Positions 23,663 through 48,639 are shown, counted from the first letter of the stretch. The stretch is DNA of 64,000 nucleotides from a virus (IMGVR_UViG_3300020045_008916:1-64000); one strand, 5' to 3'. Made by a program: numbers and translations. The notes: generated by a model not told the origin, from the letters alone.

Positions 23663-24274
23663 TTACTTAACAAAATTAATAAGAAAGTCTAGCAATAGTT
23701 GTTTGTAATTTACAGCAGCACCTAAAACAGCAGCAGCAGCATCAGCAGCATAAGCAGCATAAGCAGCATAAGCAGCATAAGCAGCATAAGCAGCAGCAGC
23801 AGCAGCAGCATCAGCAGCATAAGCAGCATAAGCAGCATAAGCAGCAGCAGCAGCAGCAGCATCAGCAGCATAAGCAGCATAAGCAGCACCAAAAGCAGCA
23901 GCAGCATCAGCAGCATAAGCAGCATCAGCAGCAGCCCTTCTTTTTATCCTCAAAAACTCTAAGTCGACAGTACCATTCAAATAATCTTGTGTCGCTTGTA
24001 TAGCCTCTCTTGGGGCTTTACTTGGATACTTTTTCTCGTAGATAGGTAATACAATCAATGCAACACCAATGGCAAGTAATCTAAACTCTTTATCTTGTAA
24101 TTGGCAATTGTTTCTTACAAACCAAAACTTATCCTTTAAGGAAATATCTAGATTTAAAATCTGTTGGATTGACATCTCTTGTGCCTCGCCAATGATAGTT
24201 TCAGATTTGCCAGCAGTTTCTTTATAGCAGCCACTACCCGCTAAAATTTCTTTTCTTGAAAATAATGTTTTCAT
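23663..24274 (-). CDS. Helical protein with an Ala/Tyr/Asp low-complexity tail (AAYAAYAADAAA)
   Basis: Imm5-like N-terminal helices (LPIYEKKYP...PREAIQA) followed by tandem repeats. Confidence 0.65.
   Translation of the reverse strand: MKTLFSRKEILAGSGCYKETAGKSETIIGEAQEMSIQQILNLDISLKDKFWFVRNNCQLQDKEFRLLAIGVALIVLPIYEKKYPSKAPREAIQATQDYLNGTVDLEFLRIKRRAAADAAYAADAAAAFGAAYAAYAADAAAAAAAYAAYAAYAADAAAAAAAYAAYAAYAAYAAYAADAAAAVLGAAVNYKQLLLDFLINFVK
23722..23938 (-). repeat. GCT/GCTTAT/GCTGAT microsatellite-like coding repeat
   Basis: Forward-strand gcagcataa/gcagca/gcatca units. Confidence 0.9.
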
Positions 24275-28875: not shown

Positions 28876-29355
28876 TTAAATTCTCCCCGATGATAGTACA
28901 TTAATGGTAAAAGCTCTTTGGTTTTCTACAAACTCCCCTGTCTTTTGATGAGAAGCCGCCTGTGCTATAACCTCAATCAAAATCAACTCTCTTTCTAAGT
29001 GCCAGTCCTCAGGCAGTTCCGCACACTGTGCAAACGCTACACGTGCCTCGCTCATGTACTCAAAATCTTCGTTTAATTCTAAGTGCTTAGCATCGTGCCA
29101 AGCTCTGAATAGTATGTTTATATAGGGGTCTCCGAAAATTGTATTATCGCAATGGTCTCCCGATATAGGCATGTATCCGTGTTTTTTGGTGGCTTTTTTG
29201 AACTCTTCAAAGGACATTTCTTCTCCACACTCTACAGTGAATTTTAAATTATTTGTTCTGTTGACAATCCAGTCGTTCAACCTTTGACTGAATGGTGTAC
29301 TAGCTTTTAACCTTAATAGCTGTTCGATTGAGTACCCGTTTTTGTTGTTTTCCAT
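28876..29355 (-). CDS. Conserved phage protein with an N..FRAWHD..H motif (putative metal-binding)
   Basis: NILFRAWHDAKHL...F...E.RVA; gene directly downstream of the twister ribozyme. Confidence 0.65.
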   Translation of the reverse strand: MENNKNGYSIEQLLRLKASTPFSQRLNDWIVNRTNNLKFTVECGEEMSFEEFKKATKKHGYMPISGDHCDNTIFGDPYINILFRAWHDAKHLELNEDFEYMSEARVAFAQCAELPEDWHLERELILIEVIAQAASHQKTGEFVENQRAFTINVLSSGRI

Positions 29356-29365
29356 TTCGTGATTT

Positions 29366-29444
29366 GTTTTAGTACTCTGTGTTTTACAGGCTTGTAACCG
29401 TCTTTGGCCACATTGCTAGGTGCTTTTCAGGTTAAGCACCAAAC
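29366..29444 (-). ncRNA. Twister ribozyme, type P1
   Basis: Minus strand: UAG-CAA-UGUG-GC-CAAAG-ACGG-UUACAAGC-CUGU-AAAA-CACA-GAGUA-CUA; P2, P4, T1 (UAC/GUA) and T2 (GC/GC) all pair; P1 is extended by GUUU/AAAC around an inserted 7-bp hairpin. Confidence 0.85.
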
Positions 29445-29452
29445 CGTCTACT

Positions 29453-29596
29453 CTAGTAGCTTGATAGGTTGAAAATAGTTCCGTTGATATGTGCCACAAC
29501 CAACATAGAGATGATAGTTGCCAAGAACAGGATGCCGCCAACGATAGCGCACTTCTCGTTTATAGGCTTTGACCTAAAATAGTGGATAGCTTTCAT
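29453..29596 (-). CDS. Small membrane protein (not in ORF track)
   Basis: MKAIHYFRSKPINEKCAIVGGILFLATIISMLVVAH... 47 aa, one TM. Confidence 0.55.
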   Translation of the reverse strand: MKAIHYFRSKPINEKCAIVGGILFLATIISMLVVAHINGTIFNLSSY

Positions 29597-29597
29597 T

Positions 29598-29945
29598 TTA
29601 ATCTTTGGTTAGGTCTACTTCAACAAGTTCTTTTATTTCCAACGTAATATGGTTAGCATATAGTTTTCTTTGACCACGCTCCCACAAATCTAAAGCGGTA
29701 GCTCTCGGCTGCTCGTTATGTTCATCCACCAAACACGATGTTTGAATGTTACCGTCTTCAACCTCACAGTTAGCAAAGTCCAAATTAAATCCAACGTGTT
29801 GAAAGTATTTGCCTATTGCATCTTTCCAGTTTTCAGCCTCTACAATTTCATCTAGCGTATAGGCGTTAACACTTTCTAATTGTTCGCCCTCTAAATAGAT
29901 GTCTTCATAAACATCGTGCATGGAAGTTATATAAAATCTTTTCAT
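29598..29945 (-). CDS. Hypothetical protein
   Basis: Likely start MKRFYITS at 29945. Confidence 0.6.
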   Translation of the reverse strand: MKRFYITSMHDVYEDIYLEGEQLESVNAYTLDEIVEAENWKDAIGKYFQHVGFNLDFANCEVEDGNIQTSCLVDEHNEQPRATALDLWERGQRKLYANHITLEIKELVEVDLTKD

Positions 29946-29949
29946 GTTG

Positions 29950-30318
29950 TTAGTTTTTATGTTTAGCAAATATTTCAATTATCTTAACATCTCTTCCACT
30001 CTTAGCGTAGTGGTTACGTCCATCATTAAATTGTACTACATTTTTATTGTAAAATCTCACACGGCTTCTGTTGACTAACAAATCCTTAACCAGTGGGTTT
30101 TCAAAAATGGAAACTTGTACAGCTTCTTTTCTTTTAGCCCTTAATTTTTTCTTAGTACGAATTTCATCTATGTTAATAGTTAGCCTTAATTTTGCTATTT
30201 CTGATTTAATTTCACGGCTTAATTTAAACCGCATATCTAGTTTTGGCAGTCGCCCACATAAGACAAACGCTGTCGATGTTACGGCTTTTATTGCAATTAG
30301 CTTTGCTTTCTTATTCAT
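29950..30318 (-). CDS. Basic hypothetical protein
   Basis: Lys/Arg-rich ORF. Confidence 0.55.
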   Translation of the reverse strand: MNKKAKLIAIKAVTSTAFVLCGRLPKLDMRFKLSREIKSEIAKLRLTINIDEIRTKKKLRAKRKEAVQVSIFENPLVKDLLVNRSRVRFYNKNVVQFNDGRNHYAKSGRDVKIIEIFAKHKN

Positions 30319-30319
30319 G

Positions 30320-30436
30320 TTACAAAAGTTTAGGGTTTTTAATTGAGGGGATAAAATCGTTTTCCATCCATTCGACGAACAACAACCAGCGTTTAGCTTG
30401 GCGTGTTTTATATCTTCTTAGCGTGTTGGTTTTCAT
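30320..30436 (-). CDS. Small hypothetical peptide (not in ORF track)
   Basis: MKTNTLRRYKTRQAKRWLLFVEWMENDFIPSIKNPKLL, fills the gap exactly. Confidence 0.45.
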   Translation of the reverse strand: MKTNTLRRYKTRQAKRWLLFVEWMENDFIPSIKNPKLL

Positions 30437-30438
30437 AT

Positions 30439-30825
30439 TTATAGGAATTTATGTTTAACTCTCTTTTTTGCTTCGCTGTAAAACTCCCCATCTTCATCTT
30501 CCAAGTCCATCAATACTATTTGCAATCCCTCCCGAGTGCCTCCATTATCAGCCCATTCTAATTGGTTAGGAGAATAGTCTTTGAAATACTCGTCTTCAAC
30601 ATCACCAACACCTACAGTTAAAAAGCTTAACAACGCTATAGAACTTTCTAAGCTATCCCACGAATGAAAAATAGAGGGTTTATAATCAGCCCCTTTAAAA
30701 AGCAACTTACCATCTACGTACATTTTATAAGCTACTTTATCACCACAATAGTAAGTGGTTAGGCTAATACCTAAATCTTTGATTTTAGTAGAGGCTAGTT
30801 TTTGCGTAAAATAGTTAGTTTTCAT
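30439..30825 (-). CDS. Hypothetical protein
   Basis: Coupled ORF. Confidence 0.6.
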   Translation of the reverse strand: MKTNYFTQKLASTKIKDLGISLTTYYCGDKVAYKMYVDGKLLFKGADYKPSIFHSWDSLESSIALLSFLTVGVGDVEDEYFKDYSPNQLEWADNGGTREGLQIVLMDLEDEDGEFYSEAKKRVKHKFL

Positions 30826-31037
30826 AGCTTTATGGTTTCTAAATCTCCTCTTAAAATCCTACCTAGATAGGCGGTTTTGCCCTCATCAACTAAAAATAAT
30901 AATCTACCTATCTGCTTTAAGTCTTTTTTGAAACGTCCGTTTAACAAGCCTTCAAATACGCTTGGTGCAAGAATGCTTTTATGAGTTTCTACTAAAGCAA
31001 GTAATTGCTCGTTTGTTGTTAAGATATACTGTTTCAT
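30822..31037 (-). CDS. Hypothetical protein whose start codon lies in hammerhead stem III
   Basis: ATG at 31037-31035 within GAAACAATG. Confidence 0.6.
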   Translation of the reverse strand: MKQYILTTNEQLLALVETHKSILAPSVFEGLLNGRFKKDLKQIGRLLFLVDEGKTAYLGRILRGDLETIKL

Positions 31038-31086
31038 TGTTTCGTTATTTTTAACTCATCAGGCTAGACACACATCTAGCGACAAT
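31036..31086 (-). ncRNA. Hammerhead ribozyme, type III
   Basis: AUUG-UC|GCUAGA-UGUGUG-UCUAGC-CUGAUGA-GUUA-AAAA-UAAC-GAAA-CAAU; complete core and three paired stems; predicted cut between 31081 and 31080. Confidence 0.92.
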
Positions 31087-31540
31087 TTATTTACCCAAAC
31101 TCGTTGCCTAGTCTTTGGGGGCTCGCAATACCTGTACACTTTTATCGGTGTTATGGCTCAAATAGTCCTGTTTATGTGACTAATGCGGATTTGTTTTTGT
31201 TTCGGGTTGGAGTATCTCTTAATTCCCTACATTACGTTTTAAAGTTGCTATGTAATATTTAACCTAATCGCTTTGCGACATTTCACAACGTCCTACTAAC
31301 TTTCGGGATAAAACCCATATTCAATTGGTAACAACTAATTTGTTTGACTTGACATTTAATAAGCCATTGAGTTTATTCTCAATCCACCATTTAGAGGACG
31401 TGGAAAACCTGCATCTTTTAAGTCCCTGCAAGACTTTTTAGAAAATGTAACAGTCGTCTATATAGACCTCTCTTTTGTATAGACTTATCCTTATTTCATG
31501 ATTTAGCCACTGTTACATTCTTGTTGGTTACTTTCAACAC
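31087..31540 (-). ncRNA. Candidate ~455-nt structured non-coding RNA
   Basis: No ORF longer than about 11 codons on the minus strand; own promoter at 31543-31574; hairpins include AAUGUAACAGU/ACUGUUACAUU, AUUGAG/CUCAAU and GACGUU-GUGA-AAUGUC. Confidence 0.5.
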
Positions 31541-31542
31541 TT

Positions 31543-31574
31543 CAAAGGTAAGTATAAGATTTGGTATTTGCAAG
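31543..31574 (-). promoter_or_regulatory. Early-class Bacteroidota promoter
   Basis: CTTG-20 nt-TACCTTTG. Confidence 0.75.
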
Positions 31575-31749
31575 GGTTATTTTAAAATACTTGTATCATT
31601 GCTTTATTTGTGTGCTAGCTTGTAATTTGATAAGTGCTAACCTACTTTAAAGTTTTAGGTTCAAAGCCTCTTAATCATACTGCAAGCGTAACTTACTAAT
31701 TGGCGTGTATTGAACACTAATATATTTTAAACTCTATACAAAGAACTAT

Positions 31750-31814
31750 CTTTTGCTTAACTCATCAGAATAGGCTCAAAAGCTACCTATTGACGGCTGT
31801 TAGACCGTTTCGTT
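31750..31814 (-). ncRNA. Hammerhead ribozyme, type II, with pseudoknot
   Basis: AAC-GAAA-CGG-ucuaacag-CCG-UC|AAUAGG-uagCUUUUGag-CCUAUU-CUGAUGA-GUU-aag-CAAAAG; loop I CUUUUG pairs 6/6 with the 3' tail CAAAAG; predicted cut between 31792 and 31791. Confidence 0.92.
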
Positions 31815-31817
31815 TTT

Positions 31818-32027
31818 TTACTTGTTTGCTTTGTGCATTTCTCTTTCGTGTGTTAAAACATCAGCACACCACCTTACTTTATTCATTAAGGCAGTAGAGT
31901 TACCAAAACCATATTCAAAACTATTACAACCCAAATATATGTCACCTATTACATTTTTTAATTCTGCTGATAATTTAGCGGCTTTTGCAAACTTTGCATC
32001 TAATTGTTTTACTGTAAGTGTTTTCAT
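31818..32027 (-). CDS. Small early protein
   Basis: Own promoter; stop codon lies 3 nt before the type II hammerhead. Confidence 0.65.
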   Translation of the reverse strand: MKTLTVKQLDAKFAKAAKLSAELKNVIGDIYLGCNSFEYGFGNSTALMNKVRWCADVLTHEREMHKANK

Positions 32028-32081
32028 AATGCTAATATTTTTAGTTTTAAGGTGATTTCCTGCTTGTCACTTCCGACATAA

Positions 32082-32113
32082 CAAAGGTGTGAATAATATT
32101 TGATATACACAAT
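32082..32113 (-). promoter_or_regulatory. Early-class promoter
   Basis: ATTG-20 nt-CACCTTTG. Confidence 0.6.
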
Positions 32114-32866
32114 AGCAAGACAAAAATAAATACAATAAAGTTTAATATAATTTGTAAAGTGCTGATAATGAGAGAGATTAATTTTATATAAGATTTAAGA
32201 TAAAGCGGGATAGCTATAAGGTAGTAGGATATTTTGAGCTAAAAGTTGTTAGCTAACCATATCACAGGATTTAAAGGATAAGAGCTAATTAGCTACTACC
32301 TATAGGTGAATAACAAAGAGTGACACAATGACACGTATAAGATGACACGATATGATAGTTTGTCATGCTATAATAAATTGACAGCTAACAGAATATACCG
32401 AGCGGTATAATTAGTGGATGCTAAAATTGTTAGCAAAGGATGGATGTTATCAGCTAACCTACTAATTTAAGAGATAAGTAATATATACTATAAGATAGAT
32501 AACAAGACATAGGAGATATAAGGGTAAACAGGGGAGAGAGCAAGAGAGCGTGTAACGTGTTGCGGGATATCGTGCGGATTAGGTTGTTATTGTGCCTCAG
32601 ATAAGCTGAAAGGGTGATTATAGACTAGATGGATAAGTGAGGGAATATTAAAAGCACAATAGTATTATACCCTCATCTCACAAACATCTATCTAAATCTC
32701 TTTCAAAATACCCTCAAATCAATACTTAGTGTATCAAAGTGCCTCTAATTAGCCTCAAATATCCCAATTAACAAAGTGCCTTTAAAGCATCGTGAATAAA
32801 CTATTCCTCTAGGGCAGAGACTTGAATATCAATCACCCCCTTAGTGTATTTAGAACCGATTGGACG

Positions 32867-33031: not shown

Positions 33032-33183
33032 TTCAATAGGGTTATGTAAGCGATTGAATAAACAGCTAACAAAGCGACAGCTAAGCAGATTAGCACGGGT
33101 TTTAAACGTGACAAAGTGGCAGACAAGCCTCTGTACTTGTAGGTTGTGGCTAGAACTTCAAGGGTAAGTTTTAAATCTTTCAT
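33028..33183 (-). CDS. 51-aa membrane peptide (not in ORF track)
   Basis: MKDLKLTLEV...VLICLAVALLAVYSIAYITLLK. Confidence 0.55.
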   Translation of the reverse strand: MKDLKLTLEVLATTYKYRGLSATLSRLKPVLICLAVALLAVYSIAYITLLK

Positions 33184-33210
33184 TGTGATTATGTTTAAGG
33201 TTAAAGGGGT

Positions 33211-33515: not shown

Positions 33516-33562
33516 AATGCTAATATTTTTAGTAAAAGCCGTAGCGTCATTGCTTGGCACTT

Positions 33563-33594
33563 CAAAGGTGCAAAATAGTATTGACATATGCAAG
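33563..33594 (-). promoter_or_regulatory. Early-class promoter
   Basis: CTTG-20 nt-CACCTTTG, followed by AAGTG as at 31543. Confidence 0.65.
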
Positions 33595-45363: not shown

Positions 45364-48300
45364 TTAGTGGCAACCAGCCCAAGTTTTGTTACAAATCCAT
45401 TCATGGCCGAGGGCTACATTAAGGTTCATCAGATTTCCTGTTTTCTGAATAGCATTAGCTATGGCTCTTGAAATATCGTTTGGCATAGTTATATACCACT
45501 TTTTACCGTGGGATACTGCACTAAGCTGTTCACCCTTCCATTCCTTAGCAAAAGCATTTGCCTCATCTTCTGTTTCAAAAACCTTGAACTCCATAAGCGT
45601 GGGATTAACAGCTAGTTGGTTCTCATCGTGGTACTCAATCATGCTACAACAATCTGGCCTACCTACAAAAGGGTCGGTACAATATCCTTTTTCTTCAAGC
45701 TCTTGCATCAAAAACATGGTTGTATATTTTGCACAGATAACCCCAGCACTCTGGAACAAGGCGTTAAGAATACTGTGCTGGCTCCTAATGTTTATTTTTC
45801 TACCATCGATACTCCTAATGTATTTTTTACCAGTGCTTAACCACTCCTTTTCCATAGCATCCTTAGCTTCTTTCAAAGCAGGTGCCGCTTCCCAAAAACC
45901 ATTATACAGTTCTTCGCCTCTTTCTCTCCCCACCACAAACATCTTCATTATTTTAGCTATTTGAGCACCATACGTTATGGAGTATTTGAAACTTTTAGCA
46001 TCTGACCTGCTGATACTCAGCACTTTAGCATTTACGGAGTGGATGTCATCGGGCTTTTCTGCAATCATAGCTTTTGAATATGCTATTCCATCTGTACCTC
46101 TGTAGCAATAGTGGCCTTCTATTCTAGCCTCCAAGCTACTGAAGTCAAAACCACATTGAAGAAAACCTACTCCTGCTCCAAACAAACTTCGCATTTCTAC
46201 CCCATACGTTGATGTTGGTCTAGCCACATTAGCAACACCTATGTGCTTGTACCTGTGTGTGTTGTGAGTTACAATACCGTTTGAAACATAGCTGTGTGCA
46301 TTTTCAATAGTAAGGTCATAAGTAGACTCTCTTCCTTTATAAATTAGAGATTTTATTTTTGTAGGTTTATAGTCTGGCTTGAAAGTATATTCTAAATATT
46401 GGTCATTCTCAATGTTCCATCTAATACCTCTACGTATTTGGCTGACAGTTTCTCTACAAACGCCATATTTTTCGGCTACTCTTCTATCGTCTCCCTTGTT
46501 ATATCCTTTTTTAAAATACTCCCTAATCTCTTCTATATCTTTTTGCTTTAGTTTTGTATCGGAACCCTGTCTCCTTCGCTTACCAATGCCCCCATGTAAT
46601 TTTATATCAAATTTATTTTCTTTGGAAGTGCCATATTTCAAATTGCTTAGGAAATTATTAAAAGTATTACCATCTAAATGTCTACACTCTAAATCTGACA
46701 AGCCTTGAAAAGTTTCAAGAACAGCTCTTCCGATAGATTTTCTTACTTTTGTTCTTCCATCTCCAACATAGAAATCAAAGGTTACAGGCCTTCCAGAGTG
46801 TTTCTCAGCAACCATCGGACTTAAGTACCTACCACGCTTTGTCCTAATTCTTCCCCAAGAGGATACTTCATACTTATCAAAACTGGGATATTCCTTCCAA
46901 ATTTCTTCCCCTTCATAAGAAAACACCAAATCGTTATCCTGTAATTCTTGGCACGTGACCCAACCCCTCTCAGTTAAAAATGGATGATTACCCGTGCATC
47001 TTAGCGTAGCTAAATTTTCTAGAGTCACTTCCCAAACATCTTTTATACCATTCTCAATTTTATCAATCGCTTTTTCGTATTTTCCAGTGTGTGTTAAAAC
47101 TCTATCTACATTTTCAATCACATCAACAATCCTTTTCAAACCATTGTTTGTAATTATTAACGTATCCTCAGTGACACAGGAAGCACCAATTTCTATTGCT
47201 GGTGTTGGTACTCGGCCATCCTCCTCGCGATAGTTTTTCAGAAATCCCGTATTTGGCACCTCGGTATCCATATCCATCTCCTCAATATCTCCACCTGCTA
47301 TGGTAGACTTTCTGTGGCGATATGTCAGGTAATCTGCAAAGTCTTTAGCAAAGGCAACTTTCTCTCCCAAGGCTATCAGATTAGGACAAAGCTCTTTCTC
47401 CACTCCAACCCGTACGGCAGGAGATGTTGGCACACGAACAGGTTTTCTATCTCCCAATCGCTTTTTGATTTTCATATACACCGTATCTTCATCAGCCTTT
47501 AGAAATTCCAATCGTTGTGCCTTGTATTTTCCTCCCATTGTGTCAGCGTACCACCTATCTAGGGCTTTAATCCTTTTGTCCAGTGGAATGGTCTGTTTCT
47601 TGCTATCCTTCGTTAAATCCCTCTCCTTCCAATCGCTCGGGTTCCAGCCCAGTTCTATTAAATACATTTTTACAGTATCCAAGTCATCAATCTCCGCTGG
47701 TACTTCTGTTTTCAAAGGTTCGGTCAGTGGAAGCGTATAGGTCGTTCCCTCGTATAAAAAGCTTTCACCATTTAAAGTAGCTCCCAAGTTTTCTGCAAAC
47801 CTAAGCATACTCTGGGTATAACTCCCATCTTTTTTGACCTGCTGTACAGGGGGAGTATAGAAACTCTTCTCTGTTTGGGTCAACTTCCTTTTGGGTAGTA
47901 TCGGATTTACCTTGTTCGCAAGTTCGGTAAGCTTATTGTCCAAGTCAATCAGAAGTCTCAATGCAAGCGGCTTATCAAAGAAGAAACCCAAAGTCTCCCG
48001 CCTGATTGCGATATCCGCTAGTTTATGTTCCTGCTTAATGGCCATTCGCCAGCCATCATATCCTGCCAGTTCCTGTGTAAGAGCTTTATATGTAGAAGCT
48101 GTGGATGAGCAATCCTGGATACAGTAGTCTGTCATTAAATCATTGAACTCCCAAAACTCTGCACCTTTAGGGTCACTCTTGTCAATATACCCTGCCTCAA
48201 TGCACTTTTCCCTATAATCTGTCTTGAAATTTCCTGTACGTAAACCCCAAGCCATCAGTCCATGCCCTCCCAATCTATCTGGATTTGACATTCTAGAAAG

Positions 48301-48639
48301 GATAAGCGTATCGAGAAATCGCATTTCCCTTCCAAAACACGTGTCTGATTGTTCCAAATATCCAATAGTATATTCAAGAACTCCAAACAATCTTAGAGCA
48401 GGTAAATCGAATTTTATACCATTGTGAGCTAGAATATAATCATAGGGCTCCAATGCGGCCTTCATCCAGTCTTTTGTGATATCTTCTTTTTCTGCTGAGA
48501 CATATTCACCAGTAGCATAGTCTCGAACTACCACACACCATAATCTTGCTGTATCTTTTAACTTGTAAGGAAAACTCCTATGGTCAATCATTTCTTCAAG
48601 AAGGTTGTTGGACTCTATATCTATGATACCTATTTTCAT
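45364..48639 (-). CDS. polA: Family A DNA polymerase (T7-like, 3'-5' exonuclease) interrupted by an intein
   Basis: IDIE, HNGIKFD and YCIQD exonuclease motifs; DFSSLEARI, KSFKYSITYG and YHDE polymerase motifs. Confidence 0.92.
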   Translation of the reverse strand: MKIGIIDIESNNLLEEMIDHRSFPYKLKDTARLWCVVVRDYATGEYVSAEKEDITKDWMKAALEPYDYILAHNGIKFDLPALRLFGVLEYTIGYLEQSDTCFGREMRFLDTLILSRMSNPDRLGGHGLMAWGLRTGNFKTDYREKCIEAGYIDKSDPKGAEFWEFNDLMTDYCIQDCSSTASTYKALTQELAGYDGWRMAIKQEHKLADIAIRRETLGFFFDKPLALRLLIDLDNKLTELANKVNPILPKRKLTQTEKSFYTPPVQQVKKDGSYTQSMLRFAENLGATLNGESFLYEGTTYTLPLTEPLKTEVPAEIDDLDTVKMYLIELGWNPSDWKERDLTKDSKKQTIPLDKRIKALDRWYADTMGGKYKAQRLEFLKADEDTVYMKIKKRLGDRKPVRVPTSPAVRVGVEKELCPNLIALGEKVAFAKDFADYLTYRHRKSTIAGGDIEEMDMDTEVPNTGFLKNYREEDGRVPTPAIEIGASCVTEDTLIITNNGLKRIVDVIENVDRVLTHTGKYEKAIDKIENGIKDVWEVTLENLATLRCTGNHPFLTERGWVTCQELQDNDLVFSYEGEEIWKEYPSFDKYEVSSWGRIRTKRGRYLSPMVAEKHSGRPVTFDFYVGDGRTKVRKSIGRAVLETFQGLSDLECRHLDGNTFNNFLSNLKYGTSKENKFDIKLHGGIGKRRRQGSDTKLKQKDIEEIREYFKKGYNKGDDRRVAEKYGVCRETVSQIRRGIRWNIENDQYLEYTFKPDYKPTKIKSLIYKGRESTYDLTIENAHSYVSNGIVTHNTHRYKHIGVANVARPTSTYGVEMRSLFGAGVGFLQCGFDFSSLEARIEGHYCYRGTDGIAYSKAMIAEKPDDIHSVNAKVLSISRSDAKSFKYSITYGAQIAKIMKMFVVGRERGEELYNGFWEAAPALKEAKDAMEKEWLSTGKKYIRSIDGRKINIRSQHSILNALFQSAGVICAKYTTMFLMQELEEKGYCTDPFVGRPDCCSMIEYHDENQLAVNPTLMEFKVFETEDEANAFAKEWKGEQLSAVSHGKKWYITMPNDISRAIANAIQKTGNLMNLNVALGHEWICNKTWAGCH
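46261..47178 (-). mobile_element. 306-aa intein with a NUMOD4/HNH homing endonuclease
   Basis: Starts CVTEDT (residue 488), ends YVSNGIVTHN before Thr+1; internal WKEYP..KYEVSSWGRI and CRHLDGNTFNNFLSNLKY. Confidence 0.9.

What the first reader, a model, noticed from the sequence alone, without database searches (positions are those of the whole stretch)
31036..31086. Type III hammerhead whose stem III sequesters a start codon
The 3' strand of stem III (CAAU) contains the A and U of the AUG of 30822..31037. Before cleavage the AUG is paired; after cleavage the upstream AUUGUC strand can leave. Established: Bacteroidota initiation largely lacks Shine-Dalgarno pairing and favours unstructured starts with A at -3, which is present here. 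Inference: cleavage gates translation of the downstream operon. The UGUGUG loop I resembles satellite-RNA hammerhead loops.
Basis: partly seen in the sequence, partly recalled or inferred. Interest (0 to 1): 0.75.

Follow-up and report, generated by a model that had tools for sequence, protein, structure and literature searches.

The report
Phage hammerhead ribozyme overlapping a start codon
A genuine self-cleaving hammerhead RNA sits in the leader of an early operon of a Flavobacteriia-type phage and its closing helix contains two letters of the first gene's start codon, but about 60 related phage hammerheads keep the start codon 15-50 bases away, so the overlap looks like a one-off of genome compaction rather than a conserved translation switch.

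Summary
On the minus strand, 31086..31036 is a complete type III hammerhead. It has stem III AUUGU/ACAAU, a GUC cleavage site (cut 31081|31080), a 6-bp stem I with loop UGUGUG, the core CUGAUGA, a 4-bp stem II with loop AAAA, and GAA. The A and U of the AUG of ORF 30822..31037 form the two outermost pairs of stem III.

The element belongs to a large phage subclass. In 57 distinct IMG/VR members all three stems covary, and a model built without the window scores it at 69 bits. The host type is also as claimed: terminase relatives come only from Flavobacteriia phages, SD motifs are depleted, and A is enriched at -3.

The gating inference is weak.
- Of 63 relatives with a callable downstream ORF, only the window has the AUG inside the ribozyme; the others lie 15-51 nt downstream.
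- Phages related through the neighbouring gene lack the ribozyme.
- Stem III is worth only 2-3 kcal/mol.
- Folding models leave the AUG about 85% unpaired before and after cleavage.

The most likely role is 5'-leader processing and insulation of an early operon. That operon also carries a type II hammerhead and a twister. The typical relative is a stop–hairpin–hammerhead–~22-nt-leader–AUG module.

The parts
31036..31086 (-). Type III hammerhead ribozyme. Self-cleavage is predicted between C31081 and G31080.
   Evidence: Sequence read. Rfam RF00008 gives 36.5 bits. The leave-out covariance model R2 gives 69.1 bits. The fold is supported by covariation in 57 relatives.
31035..31037 (-). AUG of ORF 30822..31037. 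A31037 and U31036 pair with U31085 and A31086, the outermost pairs of stem III.
   Evidence: It is the only possible start of the frame, as the sequence shows directly.
30822..31037 (-). 71-aa ORFan, the first gene of the leftward operon. Its stop overlaps the ATG of the next gene (ATGA at 30825).
   Evidence: Listed. No homologue in two protein searches. Codon score 0.249 per codon, typical of this phage's genes.
31094..31119 (-). Imperfect hairpin (CCCAA..UUGGG) lying 7 nt upstream of stem III. It is a weaker, displaced counterpart of the hairpin that abuts stem III in most relatives.
   Evidence: Fold.
31087..31536 (-). ORF-free leader that cleavage would detach. It is about 455 nt if transcription starts at the promoter-like site.
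   Evidence: No ORF under table 11, TAG=Q or table 4. No excess predicted structure, z -0.7 over 31081-31790.
31538..31574 (-). Promoter-like repeat of Bacteroidota type (TTG, 20 nt, TACCTTTG). It is one of 3-4 copies in the 31.5-33.6 kb region.
   Evidence: Repeat family D1, alignment, TANNTTTG scan. Promoter function is inferred, not shown.
31750..31815 (-). Candidate type II hammerhead, cut 31792|31791, lying 3 nt after the stop of ORF 31818..32027. It has a 6-bp pseudoknot between loop I (CUUUUG) and the 3' tail (CAAAAG).
   Evidence: Repeat D4. Rfam RF02276 gives 25.6 bits, E 0.002 in a local search, below the cut-off of 37. The pseudoknot type is described in PMC3088659.
29369..29419 (-). 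Candidate twister-P1 ribozyme, cut 29415|29414, ending 13 nt before the ATG of ORF 28876..29355.
   Evidence: Rfam RF03160 gives 34.2 bits, E 1.5e-4, below the cut-off of 67.2. The T2 pseudoknot covaries: UAC/GUA here against the consensus CCC/GGG (sequence).
29420..29440 (-). 7-bp hairpin GGUGCUU/AAGCACC ending 0 nt before the twister. This is the same hairpin-then-ribozyme layout seen in the hammerhead family.
   Evidence: Sequence.

Best explanation
This is an authentic type III hammerhead of a subclass that is widespread in phages, and it is very probably active. The subclass resembles the tobacco ringspot satellite ribozyme: 6-bp stem I with loop UGUGYG and 4-bp stem II with loop AAAA.

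It lies in the 5' leader of the first gene of an early leftward operon of a roughly 74-kb phage whose host is of the Flavobacteriia type.

Proposed mechanism:
- Once the ACAAU strand has been transcribed, the ribozyme folds and cuts between 31081 and 31080.
- The upstream RNA leaves, carrying the 6-nt AUUGUC tail with a 2',3'-cyclic phosphate. That RNA is either a ~455-nt ORF-free leader from the promoter-like site at 31574-31538, or read-through from further upstream.
- It can leave because stem III has only five mostly A-U pairs.
- The operon mRNA then begins with a 5'-OH and the stem I hairpin, 43 nt before the AUG.
- The A-rich 3' half of the ribozyme (loop II AAAA, GAAACA) then serves as an SD-less leader with A at -3.

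The main role is RNA processing and insulation. The cut gives the operon one defined, protected 5' end whichever promoter is used, and it separates the operon from the upstream RNA.

The overlap with the start codon is a local consequence of compaction. At most it makes translation follow cleavage.

Shown here: the motif, its family, the covariation, the uniqueness of the overlap and the host-type signals. Inferred: cleavage in vivo, the promoter, the stabilising or insulating effect, and any effect on translation.
For: - Motif and scores.
- Family: 81 IMG/VR loci match the loop and core pattern. In 57 distinct members, 95.4% of pair cells are standard pairs and 13 of 16 pairs show compensatory change. 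No shuffle reached these values, and slid registers gave 31-46% paired.
- Typical layout in relatives: the upstream gene's stop lies a median of 26.5 nt before stem III. A stable hairpin ends exactly 0 nt before stem III in 52 of 71 members, against 3% of random positions. The AUG lies 15-51 nt after stem III, median 22-23. In the family, therefore, the ribozyme sits beside the translation start, not over it.
- A cultured Flavobacterium phage (Elemovirus, NC_055852.1) has a type III hammerhead in the 5' UTR of the first gene of a leftward operon, at a divergent intergenic region. Its AUG lies 14 nt after the match. This hammerhead scores 39.3 bits with model R1, which was not trained on it.
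- Two more ribozyme candidates lie on the same transcript strand within 2.5 kb, each just before or after a gene. This fits a processed polycistronic early RNA.
- Published parallels: haloviruses HF1 and HF2 have a hammerhead 13 nt before the start codon of the first gene of an early polycistronic transcript, and multiple hammerheads cleave polycistronic RNAs (PMC3088659). Processing of polycistronic RNAs is the role proposed in the review PMC6765202. The engineered RiboJ insulator uses the same satellite-type ribozyme in a 5' UTR (PMC6206723).
Against: - No RNA data exist for this phage, so cleavage, the transcript start and any effect on mRNA stability are untested.
- The Rfam score is below the curated cut-off.
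- The window departs from the family's usual layout. No upstream gene lies within about 730 nt, its hairpin is 7 nt away and weak, and the AUG is inside stem III. The family-based reading may therefore not transfer fully.
- At 10-20 C, folding models predict that cleavage lowers the cost of opening the -15..+12 region by 1.5-2.5 kcal/mol. Some effect on translation is therefore plausible.
- Whether a 5'-OH end with a 5' hairpin stabilises mRNA in Bacteroidota is assumed from other bacteria.
Confidence: 0.6

Rival explanations
1. Cleavage-gated translation. Before cleavage the AUG is held in stem III of the folded ribozyme. Only cleaved mRNA exposes the start, so the ribozyme licenses translation of the 71-aa gene and, by coupling, the operon.
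For: - A31037 and U31036 are paired in the native fold.
- The host type lacks SD, and its initiation is tuned by structure and by A at -3 (PMC6847099).
- The 3' half of the ribozyme supplies A at -3, -4, -5 and -11 to -15.
- Stem II here is the weakest in the family (GUUA/UAAC, predicted 0 kcal/mol), so a ribosome could open it.
- The predicted opening energy of the start region falls by 1.5-2.5 kcal/mol after cleavage at 10-20 C.
- An engineered hammerhead that sequesters the RBS works in exactly this way in E. coli (PMC3664830).
Against: - The overlap occurs in 1 of 63 family members. The 20 other SD-less members keep the AUG 16-51 nt away.
- No other real ORF starts in this register in IMG/VR.
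- Only the two terminal pairs of a 5-bp helix are involved. The duplex is worth -2 to -3 kcal/mol at 37 C, and the G is unpaired.
- The AUG is predicted 0.84-0.89 unpaired before cleavage and 0.79-0.88 after.
- No sensor domain is present, so any gate would be constitutive: a short delay, not regulation.
- The engineered precedent needs a long extended helix.
Confidence: 0.15
2. The hammerhead mainly makes the 3' end of an upstream non-coding RNA. Two forms are possible: the ~455-nt promoter-driven ORF-free RNA, or the 711-nt RNA between the type II and type III cuts. The latter would carry a 5'-OH and a 2',3'-cyclic phosphate and could be ligated into a circle. On this reading, its position next to the AUG is secondary.
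For: - 31087-31817 has no ORF under three genetic codes.
- A promoter-like site lies at 31574-31538.
- Ribozyme candidates sit at both ends.
- A hairpin lies 7 nt before the 3' end that cleavage would create.
Against: - The 710-nt stretch folds no better than shuffles, z -0.7.
- No Rfam family matches it.
- No similar DNA was found in the phage collection.
- In relatives, the RNA upstream of the ribozyme is an ordinary gene.
- The type II candidate is below Rfam's cut-off.
Confidence: 0.15
3. Reverse coupling: ribosome binding competes with ribozyme folding. The AUG strand is the last part of the ribozyme to be transcribed and lies in the ribosome's footprint. A 30S subunit that binds first would prevent stem II and stem III from forming, and so prevent cleavage. 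Well-translated transcripts would then stay joined to the leader.
For: The 30S footprint would cover stem II and stem III (geometry). Both helices are weak.
Against: This is pure inference. Natural hammerheads with tertiary contacts cleave at about 1 per minute or faster (PMC3088659). No relative shows the overlap.
Confidence: 0.05
4. A chance motif or an inactive relic.
For: The Rfam score is below the gathering cut-off. Phages related through the neighbouring gene lack it.
Against: - Every core position, the G10.1-C11.1 pair, the A15.1-U16.1 pair, the GUC site and all three helices are intact.
- E is 9e-8 per genome, and the leave-out model gives 69 bits.
- The loops are identical to those of a conserved phage subclass.
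Confidence: 0.03

Closest known systems
Type III hammerhead ribozymes (Rfam RF00008), in particular the tobacco ringspot virus satellite RNA ribozyme
   Same: Same core, GUC site, open stem III, 6-bp stem I with a loop starting UGUG, and 4-bp stem II with a 4-nt purine loop.
   Different: It is encoded in a DNA phage within an mRNA leader, not in a rolling-circle RNA replicon. Loop II is AAAA rather than GUGA. The Rfam score is below the curated cut-off.
Hammerhead of haloviruses HF1 and HF2, and the multiple hammerheads in prophage polycistronic RNAs (Perreault et al. 2011, PMC3088659)
   Same: A phage hammerhead just upstream of the start codon of the first gene of an early polycistronic transcript. 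Several ribozymes lie on one transcript.
   Different: In HF1 and HF2 the start codon is 13 nt downstream. Here it is inside stem III. The host is bacterial and SD-less.
Type III hammerhead of cultured Flavobacterium phages (Elemovirus, e.g. NC_055852.1 19083-19139)
   Same: Flavobacteriia host; 5' UTR of the first small gene of a leftward operon beside a divergent intergenic region; loop I begins UGUGU.
   Different: The AUG lies 14 nt after the ribozyme. The core has A at position 7. Loop II is 5 nt. The downstream proteins are unrelated.
Engineered hammerhead expression platforms that sequester the ribosome binding site (PMC3664830)
   Same: A translation-start element is paired within a ribozyme helix, and cleavage releases it.
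   Different: The engineered version hides a whole SD in a long extension of stem I, and the dead mutant is silent. Here only 2 nt of the AUG sit at the frayed end of a 5-bp stem III, and no effect has been tested.
RiboJ ribozyme insulator (PMC6206723)
   Same: A satellite-type hammerhead in a bacterial 5' UTR removes a variable upstream leader and leaves a 5'-OH mRNA whose 5' end is the ribozyme body.
   Different: RiboJ is synthetic and carries an added 3' hairpin to expose the RBS. In the natural phage modules the hairpin lies on the 5' side, abutting stem III.

Membership tests
Hammerhead ribozyme, type III | Conserved core: C3 U4 G5 A6 N7 G8 A9, G12 A13 A14, the A15.1-U16.1 pair and the G10.1-C11.1 pair | tested here: met
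   CUGAUGA at 31062-31056; GAA at 31043-31041; A31040-U31082; G31055-C31044 (Rfam alignment).
Hammerhead ribozyme, type III | Cleavage triplet N-U-H, with H not G | tested here: met
   GUC at 31083-31081.
Hammerhead ribozyme, type III | Three helices around the core, with stems I and II capped by loops and stem III open | tested here: met
   Stem I is 6 bp, stem II 4 bp and stem III 5 bp. The same pairs covary in 57 relatives, with 13 of 16 pairs showing compensatory change.
Hammerhead ribozyme, type III | Score at or above Rfam's gathering cut-off for RF00008 (48.5 bits) | tested here: not met
   36.5 bits. The model built from phage relatives without the window gives 69.1 bits.
Hammerhead ribozyme, type III | Loop I-loop II tertiary contact elements | tested here: inconclusive
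   Loops UGUGUG and AAAA are shared with 81 IMG/VR loci and resemble the satellite ribozyme loops. The contact itself cannot be tested with these tools.
Hammerhead ribozyme, type III | Site-specific self-cleavage | not testable with these tools
   No RNA run could be listed. This needs an in vitro transcription assay.
Ribozyme-gated translation start (works like the engineered RBS-sequestering hammerheads) | The start element is paired in the uncleaved fold and freed by cleavage | tested here: met
   A31037 and U31036 pair with U31085 and A31086, which lie on the fragment that leaves.
Ribozyme-gated translation start (works like the engineered RBS-sequestering hammerheads) | Sequestration strong enough to block the ribosome | tested here: not met
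   The stem III duplex is worth -2 to -3 kcal/mol at 37 C. The AUG is predicted 0.84-0.89 unpaired before cleavage. The opening-energy gain is 0.1-0.6 kcal/mol at 37 C and 1.5-2.5 at 10-20 C. The model ignores tertiary structure.
Ribozyme-gated translation start (works like the engineered RBS-sequestering hammerheads) | The arrangement is conserved among relatives | tested here: not met
   It occurs in 1 of 63 family members. Three other loci in this register open no ORF.
Ribozyme-gated translation start (works like the engineered RBS-sequestering hammerheads) | Translation depends on catalytic activity | not testable with these tools
   This needs reporter fusions and toeprinting.

The most novel reading that the evidence does not exclude
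In an SD-less (Bacteroidota-type) host, the 3' half of a hammerhead doubles as the translation initiation region. A15.1 supplies the A at -3, and loop II supplies the A-rich -11 to -15 tract. The start codon closes stem III, so only self-cleaved mRNA is translated. Alternatively, ribosome loading and self-cleavage compete. Either way it would be a natural counterpart of the engineered hammerhead expression platforms, and the first assigned translational role for a phage hammerhead.
Probability: 0.15. Interest if true: 0.7.

Novelty: new member of a known kind. Interest (0 to 1): 0.35.

Why it matters
The biological role of the thousands of hammerhead and twister ribozymes in bacteria and phages is still unsettled (PMC6765202).

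This window offers a compact case. Three ribozyme candidates lie on one early transcript strand of a Flavobacteriia-type phage, and one of them touches a start codon.

The comparison made here also gives a testable general picture for this phage subclass. Most members form a module: stop codon, a stable hairpin abutting stem III, the hammerhead, a leader of about 22 nt, then the AUG. This points to segmenting polycistronic RNA into a hairpin-protected upstream piece and a downstream mRNA that starts with a 5'-OH.

Cultured Elemovirus phages of Flavobacterium sp. BAL314 carry a comparable hammerhead and could serve as the experimental system.

If the start-codon overlap turned out to matter, it would link ribozyme cleavage to SD-independent initiation.

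Tried and rejected
1. Anti-SD idea. The C-rich flank 5' of stem III in relatives looked like an anti-SD that could pair with the downstream GGAG. Folding showed it is the 3' half of a hairpin lying wholly upstream. It is also present where no SD exists. Rejected.

2. Relatives of the 71-aa ORF. No IMG/VR locus was found. No homologue was found among 5.8 billion clustered proteins or 1.84 billion representatives. The start therefore cannot be checked by homology.

3. Relatives through the next gene (128 aa). IMG/VR gave none. The protein search gave 8 homologues at 45-61% identity. Their contigs, with a 3-kb flank where the contig allowed (L090-L094), hold no hammerhead by regex or by the covariance model with filters off. 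The small ORF upstream in those contigs is unrelated to the 71-aa ORF.

4. DNA similarity of 29500-32500 to 50,697 phage records: no match.

5. Public sequencing runs holding 29000-32000: none was listed, and no RNA holder was listed. No reads were laid.

6. Alternative genetic codes (TAG=Q, table 4) do not open the 31040-31830 gap.

7. A specific pairing between the 460-nt leader and the start region was sought. The best duplex was -12.9 kcal/mol, no better than a shuffled leader at -15.0 +/- 2.5.

8. The plain minimum-free-energy fold of the 66-nt element does not give stem III. It extends stem I instead, with z -1.55. Nearest-neighbour folding alone neither finds nor refutes the ribozyme.

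9. PHROG scans of the genes upstream and downstream of 70 family members found mostly families of unknown function. Two upstream genes are anti-restriction proteins. No common cargo emerged.

10. Rfam searches of large stretches missed the hammerhead because of speed filters. Only short-range searches listed it.

Full report
**What is there**

The window is the first 64 kb of a 74,165-base IMG/VR virus record estimated to be 96% complete. On the minus strand, 31086..31036 reads AUUGUC / GCUAGA-UGUGUG-UCUAGC / CUGAUGA / GUUA-AAAA-UAAC / GAA / ACAAU, followed by G. This is a textbook type III hammerhead.
- Every core position is present.
- The cleavage site is GUC, with the cut between 31081 and 31080.
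- Stem I has 6 bp, stem II 4 bp and stem III 5 bp, and stem III is open.

ORF 30822..31037 (71 aa) starts with A31037-U31036-G31035. Its A and U are therefore the two outermost pairs of stem III, its G is unpaired, and the invariant A15.1 is the A at -3.

Rfam's Hammerhead_3 model scores the element at 36.5 bits. This is below the curated 48.5, with E = 3e-6 for a 601-base search and 9e-8 per genome. Searches of larger stretches lost it to speed filters.

**Is it real?**

A scan of IMG/VR fixed only loop I (UGUGYG), the core, loop II (AAAA) and CGAAAC. It returned 81 loci.

In 57 distinct members, the three stems were left free by the pattern. Their behaviour was as follows:
- 95.4% of cells are standard pairs.
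- 13 of 16 pairs show compensatory changes.
- No shuffle out of 500 reached the observed covariation.
- Registers slid by 1-3 columns gave only 31-46% paired.

A covariance model built from 54 members, without the window and its two closest relatives, scores the window element at 69.1 bits (E about 1e-18, filters off) and finds nothing else comparable in the window. The loops and core match by construction, so the stems are the independent part of this test.

The layout is that of the tobacco ringspot satellite ribozyme: 6-bp stem I, loop UGUGCUU, 4-bp stem II (PMC9519601).

**Host and start codon**

The large terminase has relatives only in phages of Cellulophaga, Flavobacterium, Tenacibaculum and Maribacter, at 27-28% identity.

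SD-like 4-mers precede 5 of 72 genes, against 19% at random coding positions. A is enriched at -3 (0.64), -6 and -11/-12. This matches the Kozak-like pattern reported for F. johnsoniae (PMC6847099).

The 71-aa ORF has no homologue anywhere. Three things argue that it is nonetheless a real gene:
- Its codon usage is typical of this phage's genes.
- Its stop overlaps the next gene's ATG.
- An in-frame TGA within CUGAUGA leaves ATG 31037 as the only possible start.

**Is the overlap a design or an accident?**

In the family the ribozyme sits beside the start site, not over it.
- Among 63 members with a callable downstream ORF, the AUG lies 15-48 nt after stem III in the 42 with an SD.
- In the 20 other SD-less members it lies 16-51 nt after stem III.
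- Only the window has it inside the stem, at -2.
- A dedicated scan for an ATG 0-4 nt after CGAAAC found three more loci, none opening an ORF longer than 31 codons. One of them is a 377-nt viroid-like record.
- Contigs that encode homologues of the neighbouring 128-aa gene (45-61% identity) have no hammerhead within the flanks fetched (up to 3 kb), and they carry an unrelated small ORF upstream.

The ribozyme-plus-ORFan unit is therefore lineage-specific.

Energetically the sequestration is slight.
- The stem III duplex is worth -2 to -3 kcal/mol at 37 C.
- The AUG is predicted 0.84-0.89 unpaired before cleavage and 0.79-0.88 after.
- The cost of opening -15..+12 falls by 0.1-0.6 kcal/mol at 37 C and by 1.5-2.5 kcal/mol at 10-20 C.
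- No leader segment pairs specifically with the start region.

These models ignore the ribozyme's tertiary fold, so they give a lower bound on the sequestration. Even so, no sensor domain is present. Natural hammerheads of this kind cleave on the minute scale or faster (PMC3088659), so any gate would be a brief constitutive delay.

**Context and most likely function**

Upstream of the ribozyme lie about 730 nt with no ORF under three genetic codes and no excess predicted structure (z -0.7). Within this stretch is one copy of a repeated Bacteroidota-type promoter-like motif, TTG-N20-TACCTTTG, at 31574-31538.

Further upstream, 3 nt after the stop of a 69-aa ORF, is a type II hammerhead candidate with an exact core and a 6-bp pseudoknot between loop I and the 3' tail. 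It scores 25.6 bits against a cut-off of 37. This pseudoknot type is described in PMC3088659.

About 1.6 kb downstream is a twister-P1 candidate at 34.2 bits against a cut-off of 67.2. Its T2 pseudoknot covaries, and it lies 13 nt before the next ATG.

The early leftward transcript is therefore probably cut in three places. I read the type III element as a 5'-leader processing or insulating ribozyme. It detaches the leader or read-through RNA. It also gives the operon mRNA a uniform 5'-OH end capped by the stem I hairpin (-7.4 kcal/mol), 43 nt before the AUG.

Parallels:
- The HF1 and HF2 halovirus hammerhead lies 13 nt before the first gene of an early operon.
- The cultured Elemovirus phages carry a type III hammerhead in the 5' UTR of the first gene of a leftward operon, with the AUG 14 nt after it. 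It is at least 99% identical in 68 records.
- The synthetic RiboJ insulator is built on the same satellite ribozyme.

**A broader pattern seen on the way**

In 52 of 71 distinct family members, a stable and mostly GC-rich hairpin ends exactly at the base before stem III. Its median energy is -15.7 kcal/mol and its loop is often UUCG- or GNRA-like. At random positions this happens in 3% of cases.

The upstream gene's stop lies a median of 26.5 nt before stem III. No U-tract follows the hairpin, so it is not a canonical terminator.

After cleavage, the upstream RNA would end in the hairpin plus 5-6 nt and a cyclic phosphate. The window's twister has the same abutting hairpin. The window's hammerhead has only a weak hairpin 7 nt away.

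I found no description of this module in the papers read, but the literature check was limited.

**Verdict**

The proposed start-codon gate is possible but unsupported by conservation or energetics. I put it at about 0.15. Processing or insulation is at about 0.6, and 3'-end formation of an upstream non-coding RNA at about 0.15.

Earlier notes from this scan on the same genome list the same three ribozymes, the promoter and the ORF-free RNA. I had reached each of these independently before reading the notes. My fold of the 710-nt stretch does not support the note that it is unusually structured.

Noticed in passing
IMG/VR loci L002-L082 (e.g. L021:838-940, L009:4330-4430): In 52 of 71 distinct members of this hammerhead subclass, a stable hairpin ends exactly 0 nt before stem III, against 3% of random positions. 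The upstream gene's stop lies a median of 26.5 nt before stem III, and the AUG 15-29 nt after it in most. This recurrent stop-hairpin-hammerhead-leader-AUG module was not described in the papers I read.
   Followed up: partly
window 31750-31815 (-): Type II hammerhead candidate with an exact core, 3 nt after the stop of ORF 31818..32027. It has a 6-bp pseudoknot between loop I and the 3' tail (CUUUUG/CAAAAG). Rfam RF02276 gives 25.6 bits, below the cut-off. Together with the type III cut it brackets a 711-nt ORF-free RNA.
   Followed up: partly
window 29369-29440 (-): Twister-P1 candidate (34.2 bits, below the cut-off) with C instead of U before the cut and a covarying T2 pseudoknot (UAC/GUA). 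It is directly preceded by a 7-bp hairpin and ends 13 nt before the ATG of ORF 28876..29355.
   Followed up: partly
window 31538-31574, 32077-32113, 33558-33594 (-): Repeated 37-nt motif of the form TTG-N20-(T/C)ACCTTTG. It looks like a Bacteroidota-type promoter in three copies upstream of small minus-strand ORFs. A fourth, weaker copy (33154-33190) lies over an ORF start and is probably spurious.
   Followed up: partly
NC_055852.1 19083-19139 (locus L089:784-840, - strand): Cultured Flavobacterium phage vB_FspP_elemoA_7-9A and 67 sister records carry an unannotated type III hammerhead 14 nt upstream of gp62, in a 145-nt divergent intergenic region. Its core is CUGAAGA and its loop I is UGUGUUA. 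This is a possible experimental system.
   Followed up: partly
L082:1773-1826 and L082:3263-3316 (-): One IMG/VR contig carries two hammerheads of this subclass 1.5 kb apart on the same strand, each before a small ORF.
   Followed up: no
L084 (IMGVR_UViG_2615840519_000001, 377 nt): A 377-nt viroid- or satellite-like record filed in IMG/VR has a hammerhead with loop I UGUGUAU and loop II AAAA. This shows that the same loop class spans RNA replicons and DNA phages.
   Followed up: no
window 23677-23943 (-): Sub-threshold Rfam match to isrG (44.9 bits against a cut-off of 100, E 1.6e-8) inside ORF 23663..24274. It probably reflects protein-coding similarity rather than an sRNA.
   Followed up: no
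window 45364-48639 (-): The 1091-aa DNA polymerase ORF has an HNH-endonuclease match at residues ~576-788, between its polymerase segments. This suggests an inserted homing-endonuclease or intein-like element.
   Followed up: no
window 31056-31062 and 31073-31075 (-): The ribozyme itself contains two out-of-frame AUGs upstream of the start, in the core (AUG AGU UAA) and in stem I/loop I (AUG UGU GUC UAG). Both are followed by immediate stops. This is notable because AUGs near starts are reported as depleted in Bacteroidota (PMC6847099).
   Followed up: no
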